NCBI RefSeq assembly: GCF_002854065.1
Contig: NZ_CP024147.1
From: Escherichia coli
GTDB taxonomy: Bacteria; Pseudomonadota; Gammaproteobacteria; Enterobacterales; Enterobacteriaceae
Direction: 5' to 3' (one strand)
DNA: 64,000 nt
A program made the translations under genes and the position numbers. The notes under the pieces were generated by a model. It was not told where the DNA came from. It did not search any database and saw only the letters and a list, made by a program, of their open reading frames with translations. The stretch's first letter is position 1. Every line of letters starts with the position of its first letter. This document shows, in pieces, positions 15,262 to 21,078 of the stretch.

Positions 15262-16905
15262 TTATGCCGTCCGGGCAACGGCATCACGCGAAGCGGCATC
15301 GCGCTCTTCGCCCGTCAGCTCGCTAAGTTGCCCGTTGCGCATCTCCAGCAGGCGGTCGGCGTGGATAAAGTAATGATCATCATGACTGATGGCGAAAATA
15401 GTTTTACCCATCTCCTGCATCAGCGGCAGCAACACCTGATAAAACTCACGACGGAAGTGTGGATCCTGATCCGCCGCCCATTCATCCAGCAGGATAATAT
15501 CGCGTTCTTCTGCCAGCGCCAGCAACAGCGCCACGCGTTTTTTCTGCCCTTTTGATAACTTCAGGTTAACAATACGCCCGTTGCTTAACTCAAGCTTATG
15601 AGCCATTTTCAGCTGCGCCAGCCACTTCTCAACCAGTTGCGGGTTAGCGGGTTTACCCTCCGGCCCCAGCAGTTGATCAAACAGCCAGACATCGGTAAAC
15701 ACTGCCGAAAACAGTTTGCGATAATCTTCCGGTTGTTCGCCGCTGACAGGTTTGCCATCCAGCAAGATTTCGCCGCTTTGTGGCTGATACAAGCCCGTCA
15801 ACAACATCGCCAGCGTCGATTTTCCGCTACCGTTGCCGCCAATCAGAAACAGCAGCTCGCCACGTTTGATGGTGAGATTAATCGGACCAACGGAAAACGC
15901 GTTATCCTGATAAGCAAACGTCACGTTACGCAGCTCCAGCGTTTGCCAGTTGGGAAACGCCTGCGGGCGCGGAAACTCTGCTTTGAAAGGCGCGAGCGCG
16001 AATTTGTTCAGCTTGTTAAACGCCACCTGCGCCGTCAGCAGCGTCGGCAATGCGCCAACCGCCGAAAGCAGCGGCGTACGCAGGAATAAAAGCGTCAACG
16101 AATAGGTCGCGGCAACGTTGGTATCAGCCCAACCGAGGCTGTTCGCCATCCAGAACACCAGGCCGATTGCGCCCAGCATCATGATGTTTGACCAGTTCAC
16201 GGCACTAAGATGGAAGGTGTCTGCGCGAATAATATGATGGCGATACTCTTGCGCATCAGGAATGTAGAGGTTGTTAAACACATACTCGGCGCGTTCCCGG
16301 TTCAGAGTCAGCTCTTTGCGCCCTTCAAGTACAGTTTGAAAATCCGTGTACAGCTTGTCTTCGGTTTCACGCAGGGTCGCCATATGTTTGTACACCCGCG
16401 CCACCAGCACAAAACCGCCCCAGATGGTGATCGCCATCCAGATAGCCGTTACCAGCAACATTTTGCCCGACAGCATCCACAGATACGCCGCAGAACCGAT
16501 AGTGAGAATGATCCCCTGCACCAGTTCCGGCAGACGCACAAAAGCAATGGTGATATTACGCACATCGCTGGTTAATCCCGCCAGCAACGAGGCGCTACCG
16601 AGTTGTTCAATGCGCTCGACGTGAGTATCCAGAATCCGCTTGATAAATTCACTACGCAGTCGGTAAACGAAGTGATGCCCCAAAGTGGTGAGCGCCAGTT
16701 GCGATCCGAGAGTGACTGCCATCAACAGCAGCAATAATCCCAGAAACTCCGGCAACACCAGCAGACTGGTATCCGCCGTTTCGATAAGGCGCTGATTGAT
16801 AAAAGCAATTAAGCCAATGCCTAAAGCCGCACTGGCGAGGCTTAGCGCCATCACACTGATAAATGGCCAGCGATACTGCCGCCAGACAAGTACAAGAAGT
16901 TCCAT
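15262..16905 (-). CDS. yojI: ABC transporter, fused permease/ATPase (microcin J25 efflux YojI)
   Basis: 547-aa ORF with N-terminal transmembrane domain and C-terminal ABC ATPase (Walker [10 protein letters not shown]; signature LSKGQKKR). Confidence 0.9.
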
Positions 16906-16980: not shown

Positions 16981-17631
16981 TTATTCTTTTTTACCTGCCT
17001 GACGGAATGTCAGGTTGTAGCGGCAGTCGGTGGTGAGTGGATGAAACCCCGCTTTCAACGGTTGAATACCGTGATAAAACAGCCGCGATTCACCGCCCCA
17101 TACCACCACATCGCCATGTTCCAACAACAAACGTTTGAGCGGATCATTACGTTTCAGGCCACCAAATTGAAAAATCGCGGGTAAGCCCAGAGAAACAGAA
17201 ACAATTGGCGCGCGCAGATCCGGTTCGTCTTTATCCTGATGCAGCGACAGTTTCGCGCCAGGAGCGTAGCGGTTGATAAGACAAGCATCTGGCTGGAAAT
17301 CTGGATAGCCCGCCGCCGTAGCCGCACGTTGACATAAATTATGAAAACTCTGCGGCATGGCGGGCCACGGTTTATTTGTTTGCGGATCAATGGGCGAATA
17401 GAGATAACCTTGCCGATGGGTCGTCCAGCCCAGATGCCCACAGTTGGTCATCGCCACCGACATGGTATATCCCCCGGGGGTGACCATCTGGCGAAACGGC
17501 GACTGGCTGGCAACGTCATTAATATCGCGGATCAGTTGCTCCGCAGCGTTAAAAGCAAAACGCCGTAAAATTACCGCACCAGCCGCCAGTGGCTCTTGCC
17601 ACGGTTCAGCATCGGCAAACAGATCCAACAT
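16981..17631 (-). CDS. alkB: Alpha-ketoglutarate/Fe(II)-dependent DNA dioxygenase AlkB
   Basis: 216-aa ORF recognised as AlkB (HQDKDE region); immediately downstream of ada. Confidence 0.93.
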   Translation of the reverse strand: MLDLFADAEPWQEPLAAGAVILRRFAFNAAEQLIRDINDVASQSPFRQMVTPGGYTMSVAMTNCGHLGWTTHRQGYLYSPIDPQTNKPWPAMPQSFHNLCQRAATAAGYPDFQPDACLINRYAPGAKLSLHQDKDEPDLRAPIVSVSLGLPAIFQFGGLKRNDPLKRLLLEHGDVVVWGGESRLFYHGIQPLKAGFHPLTTDCRYNLTFRQAGKKE

Positions 17632-18695
17632 TACCTCTCCTCATTTTCAGCTTCGCGGCGCAGCAGTTGCGCTTTGCGCGACGCGCCCCAGCGGTAACCT
17701 GAAAGCGATCCATCACCGCGTACTACCCGATGACAGGGTATAACGATAGCCAGCTTGTTGGCGGCACAGGCACTTGCAACGGCCCGTACCGCTTTCGGTT
17801 TGCCGATGGCGTTAGCCAGTTGCTGATAACTGACGGTTTCACCGCAAGGTATCGTGCGCAGTGCCTGCCAGACTTGTTGCTGAAAAGCAGTGCCGCGAAT
17901 ATCCAGCGGTAACGTCAGCGGCGTATCGCGTTGATTGAGGCTGGCGATCACTTCACGCACATGTTGCTGAAACGTCAGATCGGCAGGCGCGTTGTCGGCA
18001 GCGGGAAACATCTGCTGCAACTCGCTGATTAATGTCGCGTCATCATCGCCCAGCAATATCGCGCAAATCCCCCGCTCGCTTTCTGCCACCAGGCAACGAC
18101 CCAGCGCACAATCAGCCAGCGCGTAACGCACCGCCAGATTTTCGCCACCGTGACGGAATTGTTTAGCCGTCATGCCCAGCGTTTCGTCAGCTTTGCGGTA
18201 GTAACTGCTGCTGTCGGGGAATCCGGCGTTAAGAATAGACGTCGTCACGCTCTCCCCTTTCGCCAGCGATTCGCGCAAACGGCGAACGCGCCAGGCCTGT
18301 TGCCAGGCTTTAGGCGTCATTCCGGTAGTCGCTTTAAACAACCGATGCAGATGGAACGGACTCATCGCCACCTGGTCGGCTAAGACTTCCAGCGTTACAG
18401 GCGTTTCCTGTTCCAGCAGTCGACACGCGTGGGTGATTTTATCCAACCGATGTTGCCGGGGATTGGCTTTGTCTGGCTGACAACGTTTGCAGGGGCGAAA
18501 TCCGGCGGCGAGTGCCTCGCTGGCATTTGCGTAGAAGGAGACGTTTTCCCGCAAAGCATGTCTGGCGCGGCAAGACGGACGGCAAAAGATGCCTGTGGTG
18601 CGCACGGCGAAAACGAATTCGCCGTCGGCATTCGGGTCGCGGGCTAAGACAGATTGCCAGCGTTGATCGTCAGTTAAGCATGTGGCGTTTTTCAT
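17631..18695 (-). CDS. ada: Bifunctional transcriptional regulator / O6-methylguanine-DNA methyltransferase Ada
   Basis: 354-aa ORF with N-terminal Zn Cys cluster (CRPSCRARH...CKRCQP), AraC-type HTH, and C-terminal PCHRV active site. Confidence 0.94.
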   Translation of the reverse strand: MKNATCLTDDQRWQSVLARDPNADGEFVFAVRTTGIFCRPSCRARHALRENVSFYANASEALAAGFRPCKRCQPDKANPRQHRLDKITHACRLLEQETPVTLEVLADQVAMSPFHLHRLFKATTGMTPKAWQQAWRVRRLRESLAKGESVTTSILNAGFPDSSSYYRKADETLGMTAKQFRHGGENLAVRYALADCALGRCLVAESERGICAILLGDDDATLISELQQMFPAADNAPADLTFQQHVREVIASLNQRDTPLTLPLDIRGTAFQQQVWQALRTIPCGETVSYQQLANAIGKPKAVRAVASACAANKLAIVIPCHRVVRGDGSLSGYRWGASRKAQLLRREAENEER

Positions 18696-18699
18696 AATC

Positions 18700-18775
18700 A
18701 GCTCCCTGGTTAAGGATAGCCTTTAGTCTGCCCGGTCACCATGGCACAAAAACCAACAATCTTGCGCTTTAATTT
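18700..18775 (-). promoter_or_regulatory. ada promoter with Ada box (AAATTAAAGCGCAAGATTGTTGG on the minus strand), overlapping the 3' end of apbE
   Basis: Minus-strand sequence upstream of the ada ATG reads ...aaaaaaattaaagcgcaagattgttggtttttgtgccatggtgaccgggcag..., containing the AAAGCGCA Ada recognition element. Confidence 0.7.
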
Positions 18776-19824
18776 TTTTCGCTGATAAGGAAGCTTTTAA
18801 ACTGCGGCGACATCCAGGTTTTAAAGCTATCACCTTCTTTGGTGATCATGTAGACCGCCAGCCCTTCCCGGCGAACAACCTCTTTGGCTTTCTCCGGCCC
18901 GAGCACCATTAAGCCAGTATCCCAGGCATCGGCTTCCAGCGCCGTCGGAGCAATCACCGTCACGGATACCAGATTGTGTTCGATGGGACGCCCGGTTTGC
19001 GGATCGATAACATGGGAAAGACGTTTGCCGTCCAGTTCGTAATAGTTACGGTAGCTGCCAGAGGTGCTAATCCCATGACCGTTGATATCCACCACAGCCT
19101 GAACCGCGTTTTCTTTATCGGTTGGTTTTTGAATCGCTACCCGCCACGGCAGGCCTTCACCGTTCATACCACGGCTGTTCAGCGCGCCGCCCACCGACAC
19201 CAGATAGCGGGAAATCCCTTCCTGCTCCATCAAGCGTGCCAGGTGATCCGCCGCATAACCTTCGCCGACGGTAGAGAGATCGACATATAAATCCGGCAGG
19301 TCTTTTTGCAGATATTGCTGATGCGACTGATTAATGACCGTCAGGTGCTGTAAGCCAGTTTTGGCTTTCATCGCATCGATCTGTTCCTGGCTCGGAATTT
19401 GAACCGGCTGTTGTTCCGGGCCAAAGCCCCACAGATTCACCAGCGGCCCGACGGTTATATCCATCGCACCATCGGTCCTTGCGCCAATGCGCAGCGAGGT
19501 GGTGACGATATCGGCCATCGCTTCACTTACCGGCCACGGCGACAAACTTTGCGAGTCGTTAAAGCGCATCAGCGCGGAATCTTTTTTATAGGTCGAAAGC
19601 AGCTGATCGTCGGCGTCCAGCTGGGTCTGAATCTTTTCTTTAAGTTCGGCGCTGCGTTTGGCGTCAATGCCCGGGATGCTGGCACGCCAGAAGGTACCCA
19701 TAGTTTTGCCTTCAAGAACGGTAACTTCAGTAGCGTGGGTTTTGGCGGGTTGTGGTTTTTGATCGCAACCAACAAAGAAGAGCGCGGCAGCCAGCAGTGC
19801 CACACGGGTAAAGCTTATTTCCAT
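18769..19824 (-). CDS. apbE: FAD:protein FMN transferase ApbE
   Basis: 351-aa ORF with lipoprotein-type signal (LFFVGC) recognised as ApbE. Confidence 0.9.
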   Translation of the reverse strand: MEISFTRVALLAAALFFVGCDQKPQPAKTHATEVTVLEGKTMGTFWRASIPGIDAKRSAELKEKIQTQLDADDQLLSTYKKDSALMRFNDSQSLSPWPVSEAMADIVTTSLRIGARTDGAMDITVGPLVNLWGFGPEQQPVQIPSQEQIDAMKAKTGLQHLTVINQSHQQYLQKDLPDLYVDLSTVGEGYAADHLARLMEQEGISRYLVSVGGALNSRGMNGEGLPWRVAIQKPTDKENAVQAVVDINGHGISTSGSYRNYYELDGKRLSHVIDPQTGRPIEHNLVSVTVIAPTALEADAWDTGLMVLGPEKAKEVVRREGLAVYMITKEGDSFKTWMSPQFKSFLISEKN

Positions 19825-19892: not shown

Positions 19893-19916
19893 TGAAAAAA
19901 GGGCCCGCAGGCCCTT
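19893..19916 (-). terminator. Rho-independent terminator downstream of ompC
   Basis: GC hairpin GGGCC-TGC-GGGCC followed by a T-run on the minus strand, just after the ompC stop. Confidence 0.65.
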
Positions 19917-19935
19917 TGTTCGATATCAATCGAGA

Positions 19936-21078
<1,143 letters not shown>

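What the first reader, a model, noticed from the sequence alone, without database searches (positions are those of the whole stretch)
18700..18775. Ada-responsive promoter embedded in the 3' end of apbE
The Ada box (AAAGCGCA) and ada core promoter start within the last codons of apbE (stop at 18769) and occupy the 73-bp apbE-ada gap, so methylated-Ada-dependent activation operates on DNA that is also apbE coding and terminator sequence. This is a compact example of regulatory and coding overlap.
Basis: partly seen in the sequence, partly recalled or inferred. Interest (0 to 1): 0.15.

Follow-up and report, generated by a model that had tools for sequence, protein, structure and literature searches.

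The report
E. coli ada promoter abutting apbE
This is the well-known alkylation-damage-inducible ada promoter of E. coli, whose activator binding site uses the last codon and stop codon of the upstream gene apbE; that overlap is real and conserved in related bacteria, but it is small and ordinary, and no apbE terminator is there.

Summary
On the minus strand apbE ends AAT TAA at 18774..18769, ada starts at 18695, and the gap is 73 bp. The classical Ada box AAAGCGCA lies at 18770..18763. The modern operator AAT-N6-GCAA lies at 18774..18762. Its A box is therefore the last sense codon of apbE (Asn351), and the stop codon lies in the operator's spacer.

The window is an E. coli chromosome, and the operator is identical to the K-12 ada promoter.

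Across 24 Enterobacteriaceae sequences from 15 named genera, the ompC-apbE-ada-alkB order and the string AAT-TA(A/G)-NNN-GCAA are invariant. A CAnnnT hexamer sits 31 nt after GCAA in 23 of them and 32 nt in one. The same 31-nt spacing occurs in K-12 aidB, so this hexamer is probably the Ada-dependent -10 element, with +1 near 18718/18717.

The "terminator" part of the claim fails. There is no hairpin plus T-run, and the RNA fold is no better than shuffled sequence (z = -0.06). The same scan does detect the ompC terminator.

The overlap with coding sequence is about 5-6 nt, or about 11 nt counting the remembered footprint. The element is already known and of low interest.

Two small additions came out of the work. 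The terminal Asn codon is always AAT in this family. A second conserved -10-like hexamer (TATCCT) keeps its distance to the ATG rather than to the Ada site.

The parts
18769..19824 (-). apbE coding sequence (FAD:protein FMN transferase, 351 aa) including the stop codon
   Evidence: ORF list, translation, NCBIfam NF007774 at 724 bits over the full length
18772..18774 (-). A box AAT of the Ada operator, which is also the last sense codon of apbE (Asn351)
   Evidence: Sequence; pattern match; A/B box definition from PMC4437013; invariant AAT in 24/24 Enterobacteriaceae sequences
18769..18771 (-). apbE stop codon TAA, forming the first 3 nt of the 6-nt spacer between the A and B boxes
   Evidence: TAA or TAG at this position in all 24 sequences
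18763..18770 (-). Classical 'Ada box' AAAGCGCA. This exact 8-mer occurs only in the Escherichia sequences.
   Evidence: other genera have AAAAAGCA, AAAACGCA, AAACCGCA or TAGACAGCA at this place
18762..18765 (-). B box GCAA, preceded by C (the high-affinity ada type) and followed by an invariant G
   Evidence: the role of the C 5' of the B box is described in PMC4437013 and PMC3788762
18748..18759 (-). Conserved block TTGTTGGTTTTT, inferred to be the -35 region and RNA polymerase contact region of the Ada-dependent promoter
   Evidence: The consensus base is shared by 10-13 of 13 genus-level representatives at each position. The block lies 17 nt upstream of the CAnnnT hexamer. This is inference, not a mapped element.
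18731..18747 (-). 17-nt variable spacer. It contains the patch that differs between this strain (GTGCCAT) and K-12 (GCGTGAT).
18725..18730 (-). CAGACT, the probable -10 hexamer of the Ada-dependent promoter (CAGCCT in K-12)
   Evidence: CAnnnT sits 31 nt after GCAA in 23 of 24 sequences and 32 nt in one. C, A and T are invariant. K-12 aidB shows the same 31-nt spacing to CATACT.
18717..18718 (-). Inferred transcription start of the Ada-dependent transcript. It was not mapped here.
   Evidence: It lies 7-8 nt downstream of the -10 hexamer. This places the operator at about -56..-44, which agrees with the published '-60 to -40' as I remember it.
18713..18718 (-). TATCCT, a second conserved -10-like hexamer (TAnn[C/A]T) that keeps 17-18 nt to the ATG. 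Its function is unknown.
   Evidence: It is the best -10 score in the region. It is present in 24/24 sequences, but 42-43, 49 or 53 nt from GCAA.
18702..18706 (-). Shine-Dalgarno sequence GGGAG of ada
   Evidence: Sequence; GGAG invariant across genera
17631..18695 (-). ada coding sequence (354 aa). Its stop overlaps the alkB ATG (TAATG).
   Evidence: PDB matches 1ZGW, 1U8B, 1WPK and 1SFE

Best explanation
This is the canonical ada-alkB promoter of E. coli. Ada that has been methylated on Cys38 binds the operator AAT-N6-GCAA (18774..18762) and recruits RNA polymerase to a core promoter that is too weak to work alone. That core promoter consists of a -35 region around GGTTTTT (18754..18748), a 17-nt spacer and the -10 hexamer CAGACT (18730..18725), with a start near 18718/18717. 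The result is autoinduction of ada and alkB, with read-through into yojI. Because apbE ends only 73 bp before ada, the operator's A box is apbE's last sense codon and the stop codon lies in the operator's spacer. This is tight gene packing that became fixed in the family Enterobacteriaceae. It is not a shared terminator/promoter element. What is shown here: the coordinates, the identity with the K-12 site, the cross-genus conservation and spacing, and the absence of an intrinsic terminator. What is taken from literature: methylation-dependent binding and activation. What is inferred: the exact -10, -35 and +1 positions.
For: The window is E. coli: 5421 of 5426 complete genomes match, all with the apbE|ada annotation. 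The block GCGAAAAAAATTAAAGCGCAAGATTGTTGGTTTTTG is identical in six diverse E. coli strains including K-12. The A box/B box definition, the contacts by R45/R71 and F114/H115/R118, the need for the RNA polymerase alpha subunit C-terminal domain, and the statement that RNA polymerase binds only with methylated Ada all come from PMC4437013 and PMC3788762. Those residues and the Zn cysteines are present in the window's Ada, and the protein matches the N-Ada-DNA complex structures. The order ompC-apbE-ada-alkB is conserved in every Enterobacteriaceae locus examined. AAT-TA[AG]-NNN-GCAA occurs in 24/24 sequences and CAnnnT follows 31 nt later in 23 of them, 32 nt in one. The per-column pattern is conserved operator, conserved T-tract, variable 17-nt spacer, then invariant C, A and T of the hexamer. 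K-12 aidB has AATGTTTTAGCAA, then 31 nt, then CATACT. alkA has 22 nt to TATGCT, which fits its known class II geometry. The MNNG-induced transcript on tiling arrays spans ada, alkB and yojI but not apbE (PMC6505713).
Against: The mapped transcription start and the DNase footprint could not be retrieved from the held literature. The -10 and +1 assignment therefore rests on phylogenetic spacing and on my memory of '-60 to -40'. The best-scoring sigma-70 -10 in the region is a different hexamer, TATCCT, and it is also conserved. No experiment was done on this strain, which differs from K-12 at three spacer positions and one -10 position.
Confidence: 0.9

Rival explanations
1. One reading: the same DNA serves as the apbE transcription terminator and the ada promoter, so that termination and activation are physically coupled.
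For: A T5 run (18752..18748) lies 17 nt after the apbE stop. Basal Ada and AlkB levels are extremely low, about 1 molecule per cell with most cells lacking AlkB (PMC6818145, PMC8643705). Something must therefore limit apbE transcripts from expressing ada.
Against: No stem-loop precedes the T-run. The terminator scan finds nothing on the minus strand between apbE and ada, yet it finds the ompC terminator AAAGGGCCTGCGGGCCCTTTTTTT at 19917..19898. The fold of 18830..18690 has z = -0.06 against shuffles. There is no Rfam hit. The T-run is conserved at a fixed distance from the operator and the -10, as a promoter element would be.
Confidence: 0.05
2. apbE-ada-alkB(-yojI) behaves as one read-through unit with an internal inducible promoter. 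On this view apbE transcripts run into ada and supply part or all of the Ada-independent basal expression.
For: There is no intrinsic terminator between apbE and ada or between alkB and yojI. RNA polymerase is reported to bind the ada promoter only with methylated Ada (PMC4437013), yet cells with zero Ada still make a first molecule at a constant rate (PMC6818145). The induced transcript is already known to run on into yojI.
Against: Ectopic and plasmid Pada fusions that lack the apbE promoter are functional reporters, and a Pada-ada plasmid removes the zero-Ada subpopulation. Basal Ada of about 1 per cell implies almost no productive read-through unless apbE itself is barely transcribed. Rho-dependent termination cannot be assessed here. 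Operon and 3'-end supplements that I searched held no apbE entry.
Confidence: 0.15
3. The functional -10 is TATCCT (18718..18713), with a start near 18706 and a leader of about 11 nt. Ada would then act as a classical class I activator centred near -62.
For: TATCCT is the best -10 match in the region. T, A and T of TAnn[C/A]T are present in 24/24 sequences. The Salmonella insertion is about 10 bp, which would keep the helical phase.
Against: The distance from the operator to this hexamer is 42-43, 49 (C. koseri) or 53 nt, so it is not fixed and the 49-nt case breaks the helical phase. The region 17 nt upstream of it is not conserved. The operator would lie at -68..-56, outside the '-60 to -40' that I recall being published. 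aidB shares the 31-nt spacing to CATACT, not this arrangement.
Confidence: 0.15

Closest known systems
E. coli K-12 ada promoter (Ada box of Teo et al. 1986; AAT-N6-GCAA consensus of Landini & Volkert 1995; N-Ada-DNA structures 1ZGW and 1U8B of He et al. 2005)
   Same: The gene order is the same, the 73-bp gap is the same, and the block GCGAAAAAAATTAAAGCGCAAGATTGTTGGTTTTTG is identical, including the overlap with the apbE stop. The Ada DNA-contact residues are the same.
   Different: There are three substitutions in the spacer (K-12 GCGTGAT, window GTGCCAT) and one in the probable -10 (K-12 CAGCCT, window CAGACT). At the -10 position K-12 is the minority allele among the six strains aligned.
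E. coli aidB promoter (activated by methylated Ada, with an upstream operator)
   Same: It has AAT-N6-GCAA followed after exactly 31 nt by a CAnnnT hexamer (CATACT). The operator also abuts the upstream gene: the yjfC stop TAA, one base, then AAT.
   Different: In aidB the operator starts 1 nt after the stop codon rather than including it. The base before GCAA is A rather than C, which the literature describes as the lower-affinity form.
E. coli alkA promoter
   Same: It has an AAT-N6-GCAA operator (AATATGAAAGCAA).
   Different: Only 22 nt separate GCAA from the -10 (TATGCT), so the operator overlaps the -35 region, which gives a different activation geometry. The upstream neighbour is divergent, so there is no overlap with a coding end.
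Salmonella ada promoter (GAATTAAAACGCA; Hakura et al. 1991, cited in PMC3788762)
   Same: apbE ends AAT TAA and the operator is AATTAAAACGCAA. CA(T/C)ACT lies 31 nt after GCAA.
   Different: An extra 10 bp lies downstream of the -10, giving an 80-bp gap. The literature reports a weaker adaptive response in Salmonella.
Transcription-factor sites inside coding sequences in bacteria
   Same: A regulator's site lies on DNA that also codes for protein. This is reported to be common (PMC9600179).
   Different: Here only the last sense codon and the stop codon are shared, and the site regulates the downstream gene from a normal upstream position.

Membership tests
Promoters activated by methylated Ada with an upstream operator (ada/aidB type) | A box AAT, a 6-nt spacer, then B box GCAA | tested here: met
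   AATTAAAGCGCAA at 18774..18762; definition from PMC4437013
Promoters activated by methylated Ada with an upstream operator (ada/aidB type) | Operator upstream of, and not overlapping, the -35 region, at about -60 to -40 from the start | tested here: inconclusive
   The start was not retrievable from the held literature. The spacing GCAA-31 nt-CAnnnT is shared with aidB and places the operator at about -56..-44 by inference.
Promoters activated by methylated Ada with an upstream operator (ada/aidB type) | C immediately 5' of the B box (the high-affinity ada type) | tested here: met
   AAAGC-GCAA, with C at 18766; its role is described. Most other genera have A at this position.
Promoters activated by methylated Ada with an upstream operator (ada/aidB type) | A cognate Ada protein with the Cys38 methyl acceptor, the Zn cysteines and the DNA-contact residues R45, R71, F114, H115 and R118 | tested here: met
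   All are present in the 354-aa product. NCBIfam Ada equivalog scores 745.6 bits. The product matches 1ZGW and 1U8B.
Promoters activated by methylated Ada with an upstream operator (ada/aidB type) | Core promoter too weak to work without the activator | tested here: met
   The consensus scan finds no sigma-70-like promoter. The best position-weight-matrix combinations on the minus strand of 18800..18680 score about 6 bits or less.
Promoters activated by methylated Ada with an upstream operator (ada/aidB type) | Induction by methylating agents that depends on Ada | not testable with these tools
   The literature covers K-12 sequences identical in the operator.
Intrinsic (Rho-independent) terminator of apbE | GC-rich stem-loop followed directly by a T-run on the transcribed strand | tested here: not met
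   No minus-strand hit lies between 18770 and 18696, while the ompC terminator is detected. Fold z = -0.06.
Rho-dependent terminator of apbE | A Rho-dependent 3' end downstream of the apbE stop | not testable with these tools
   No prediction tool was available, and the 3'-end supplements held no apbE entry.
Regulatory site overlapping coding sequence | Bases contacted by the regulator are also codons of another gene | tested here: met
   A box = Asn351 codon, and the stop codon lies within the operator's spacer.

The most novel reading that the evidence does not exclude
The junction may carry more than the textbook promoter, in two ways. First, the Ada operator may constrain ApbE itself. The terminal residue is Asn, always coded AAT, in all Enterobacteriaceae sequences examined, although the tail before it varies and distant ApbE proteins end differently. 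Second, the Ada-independent 'seed' expression that sets the noise of the adaptive response may not come from the Ada-dependent promoter. It may come from a second conserved -10-like hexamer (TATCCT, 18718..18713, locked to the ATG) and/or from apbE read-through, since no terminator separates the genes.
Probability: 0.3. Interest if true: 0.35.

Novelty: already known. Interest (0 to 1): 0.12.

Why it matters
The finding matters little on its own. The ada promoter is one of the best-studied activator-dependent promoters, and transcription-factor sites that touch neighbouring coding sequence are common in compact bacterial genomes.

The comparative data add three small points. The AAT-N6-GCAA consensus, not the 8-mer 'Ada box', is what is conserved across Enterobacteriaceae. 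The operator has probably frozen the last codon of ApbE. The origin of basal ada expression, which determines cell-to-cell delays in the adaptive response, is not explained by the known promoter and could be tested at this junction.

Tried and rejected
Primary papers. I tried to fetch them for the mapped start and the footprint: Landini & Volkert 2000 and 1995, Nakabeppu & Sekiguchi 1986, Landini & Busby 1999, and Hakura 1991. None is held.

Full-text searches. A search for the promoter sequence itself found nothing. A search for the bare 8-mer returned unrelated papers.

Supplement searches. I searched for apbE/alkB or for the K-12 coordinates in Term-seq, SMRT-Cappable-seq, Cappable-seq and operon-architecture papers. 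Nothing was found or nothing was held.

Papers on the MMS/MNNG (alkylating-agent) response. The MMS transcriptome paper and the main text of the MNNG tiling-array paper do not mention apbE.

Short-query BLAST. A 40-nt query of the invariant block against all E. coli genomes was masked and gave no match. An 81-nt query matched only 2385 genomes because of the word size, so per-site population invariance was not obtained.

Rfam. Only two chance-level hits appeared, to eukaryotic families.

TAAAGG. I considered TAAAGG (18725..18720) as the -10 and rejected it because it is not conserved outside Escherichia.

Motif counts. I considered them as evidence and rejected them because neither motif is enriched in the window.

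Full report
**What is in the sequence**

On the minus strand the window carries five genes in order:
- ompC (19936-21063)
- apbE (18769-19824)
- ada (17631-18695)
- alkB (16981-17631)
- yojI (15262-16905)

All five match NCBIfam models for the named proteins (equivalog, or subfamily for OmpC) at full length.

The minus strand across the junction reads...AGC GAA AAA AAT TAA AGCGCAAGATTGTTGGTTTTTGTGCCATGGTGACCGGGCAGACTAAAGGCTATCCTTAACCAGGGAGCTGATT ATG. The apbE stop codon is at 18771..18769 and the ada ATG at 18695..18693.

AAAGCGCA lies at 18770..18763. The longer operator AATTAAAGCGCAA lies at 18774..18762. On the current definition of the Ada site, the A box is AAT and the B box is GCAA, separated by 6 nt (PMC4437013; PMC3788762). 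The A box is therefore exactly the last sense codon of apbE (Asn351). The stop codon forms the first three bases of the spacer, and the B box is intergenic.

**Is it more than chance?**

The motifs alone are not. The 8-mer occurs 9 times in the window against 5.0 expected. AAT-N6-GCAA occurs 7 times against 15.5 expected. A tiling-array study reached the same conclusion genome-wide (PMC6505713).

The case rests on context. The window is E. coli: 5421 of 5426 complete genomes hold this stretch, annotated apbE|ada. It is 100% identical to strain XJ34 and about 96% identical to K-12. In six diverse strains the block GCGAAAAAAATTAAAGCGCAAGATTGTTGGTTTTTG is invariant. The variation sits just downstream of it, where K-12 has GCGTGAT and the window has GTGCCAT.

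The window's Ada keeps Cys38, the other zinc cysteines, and the DNA-contact residues R45, R71, F114, H115 and R118. It also matches the solved N-Ada-DNA complexes 1ZGW and 1U8B.

**Related genomes**

A DNA-pattern scan of one genome per species returned 26 ada loci. The 19 Enterobacteriaceae loci hold apbE directly upstream of ada with alkB downstream, and ompC upstream wherever the fetched stretch reaches that far (it does not in five short loci). They cover Escherichia species, Salmonella arizonae and diarizonae, Leclercia, Pseudocitrobacter, Pseudenterobacter, Phytobacter, Kosakonia, Huaxiibacter and Lelliottia. The seven non-enteric loci have no apbE. Klebsiella pneumoniae, Citrobacter koseri and an Enterobacter show the same order.

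In all 24 junction sequences apbE ends AAT + TAA/TAG, followed by three variable bases and GCAAG. The 8-mer AAAGCGCA is found only in Escherichia. The other genera have AAAAAGCA, AAAACGCA, AAACCGCA or TAGACAGCA at that place. The conserved entity is therefore AAT-N6-GCAA.

The per-column pattern across 13 genus-level representatives is as follows:
- Eleven of 14 operator positions are invariant.
- In TTGnnGGTTTTT (18759..18748) the consensus base is shared by 10-13 of the 13 representatives at each position.
- The next 17 nt are variable.
- C, A and T of a CAnnnT hexamer (18730..18725) are invariant.

**Where the core promoter is**

I could not retrieve the mapped start. The assignment below is therefore inferred.

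CAnnnT lies 31 nt after GCAA in 23 of 24 sequences and 32 nt in one. This holds even in Salmonella and C. koseri, which carry 10 and 7 extra base pairs further downstream. K-12 aidB, the other promoter with an upstream Ada operator, has AATGTTTTAGCAA, then 31 nt, then CATACT. alkA has only 22 nt before TATGCT, which fits its operator overlapping the -35 region.

I therefore assign CAGACT (18730..18725) as the Ada-dependent -10 and GGTTTTT as the -35 region. The start would be near 18718/18717, which puts the operator at about -56..-44. This agrees with my recollection that methylated Ada binds between -60 and -40 (Landini & Volkert 1995) and protects -63 to -31 (Sakumi & Sekiguchi 1989). Those two citations are from memory and were not checked here.

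A second hexamer, TATCCT (18718..18713), is the best -10 match in the region, and TAnn[C/A]T is conserved in 24/24 sequences. It keeps 17-18 nt to the ATG and not a fixed distance to the operator: 42-43, 49 or 53 nt. Its role is open. It could be part of the initial transcribed sequence or a separate basal promoter.

**The terminator claim**

No hairpin plus T-run exists on the minus strand between apbE and ada. RNA from 18830..18690 folds no better than shuffled sequence (z = -0.06). The same scan finds a textbook terminator after ompC, AAAGGGCCTGCGGGCCCTTTTTTT at 19917..19898.

Whether apbE transcripts read into ada remains unknown. Basal Ada is about one molecule per cell, 20-30% of cells have none, and most cells lack AlkB (PMC6818145; PMC8643705). 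The MNNG-induced transcript spans ada-alkB-yojI, not apbE. Productive read-through must therefore be very small, or apbE transcription must be very low.

**Does the operator constrain ApbE?**

The evidence for this is suggestive only and comes from three observations:
- Across 11 lineages, 57 apbE columns hold an invariant amino acid with a two-fold degenerate codon. Only 9 of these keep a single codon. The five other invariant Asn columns all mix AAC and AAT, and only the terminal Asn is always AAT.
- All 111 full-length Enterobacteriaceae ApbE cluster representatives end in N, while the three residues before it vary (GEK, NGK, REQ, SDK and others).
- Among 127 distant ApbE representatives, the tails differ in length and only 8 end in N.

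This fits a DNA-level constraint from the A box. Shared descent cannot be excluded, because a single column has about a 16% chance of being invariant.

**Verdict**

The overlap with coding sequence is real and conserved but small, about 5-6 nt. The 'terminator' element is absent. The feature is already known and of low interest.

Noticed in passing
window 18713-18718 (minus strand): A conserved -10-like hexamer TAnn[C/A]T (TATCCT here, TATGCT or TACACT elsewhere) keeps 17-18 nt to the ada ATG in 24/24 Enterobacteriaceae sequences. Its distance to the Ada operator varies (42-43, 49 or 53 nt). With the preceding C it resembles a sigma-S type -10 (CTATCCT). It may be an Ada-independent basal promoter.
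   Followed up: partly
window 17668-17675 (minus strand): A second AAAGCGCA(A) lies inside the 3' end of ada, 37 nt upstream of the alkB ATG. It has the B box GCAA but GCG where the A box should be, so it is at most a half-site. PMC3788762 also notes partial Ada-box-like fragments before alkB.
   Followed up: partly
window 17629-17633 (minus strand): The ada stop and the alkB start overlap as TAATG, sharing one base, which fits translational coupling within the ada-alkB operon.
   Followed up: no
window 19898-19917 (minus strand): A clean intrinsic terminator (AAAGGGCCTGCGGGCCCTTT + T-run) lies between ompC and apbE. No terminator-like site lies between apbE and ada or between alkB and yojI. 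The latter fits the reported MNNG-induced transcript covering ada, alkB and yojI.
   Followed up: partly
L035 8013-8066 (E. coli K-12 aidB upstream region): The aidB Ada operator AATGTTTTAGCAA starts one base after the stop codon of the upstream gene yjfC, and CATACT follows GCAA after 31 nt. Both upstream-operator Ada promoters are therefore pressed against the end of the preceding gene.
   Followed up: partly
window 18725-18747 (minus strand); L001 (K-12): Within E. coli the spacer just after the T-tract is a small polymorphic patch (GTGCCAT, GCGTGAT or GCGCGAT). K-12 carries CAGCCT where five of the six strains aligned, including this window, have CAGACT in the probable -10.
   Followed up: no
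protein P0061 (375 aa, from the Logan assembly collection, Kosakonia-like): One ApbE variant reads ...SEKLNRKIAG..., as if two A's were lost from the A7 run before AAT TAA. This extends the reading frame across the Ada operator. It is either homopolymer slippage or an assembly error.
   Followed up: no
L017 and L030 (Salmonella), L033 (Citrobacter koseri): Salmonella and C. koseri carry 10 and 7 extra base pairs between the probable -10 and the TATGCT hexamer, which lengthens the inferred leader. Salmonella is reported to have a weak adaptive response. Whether this insertion contributes is unknown.
   Followed up: no
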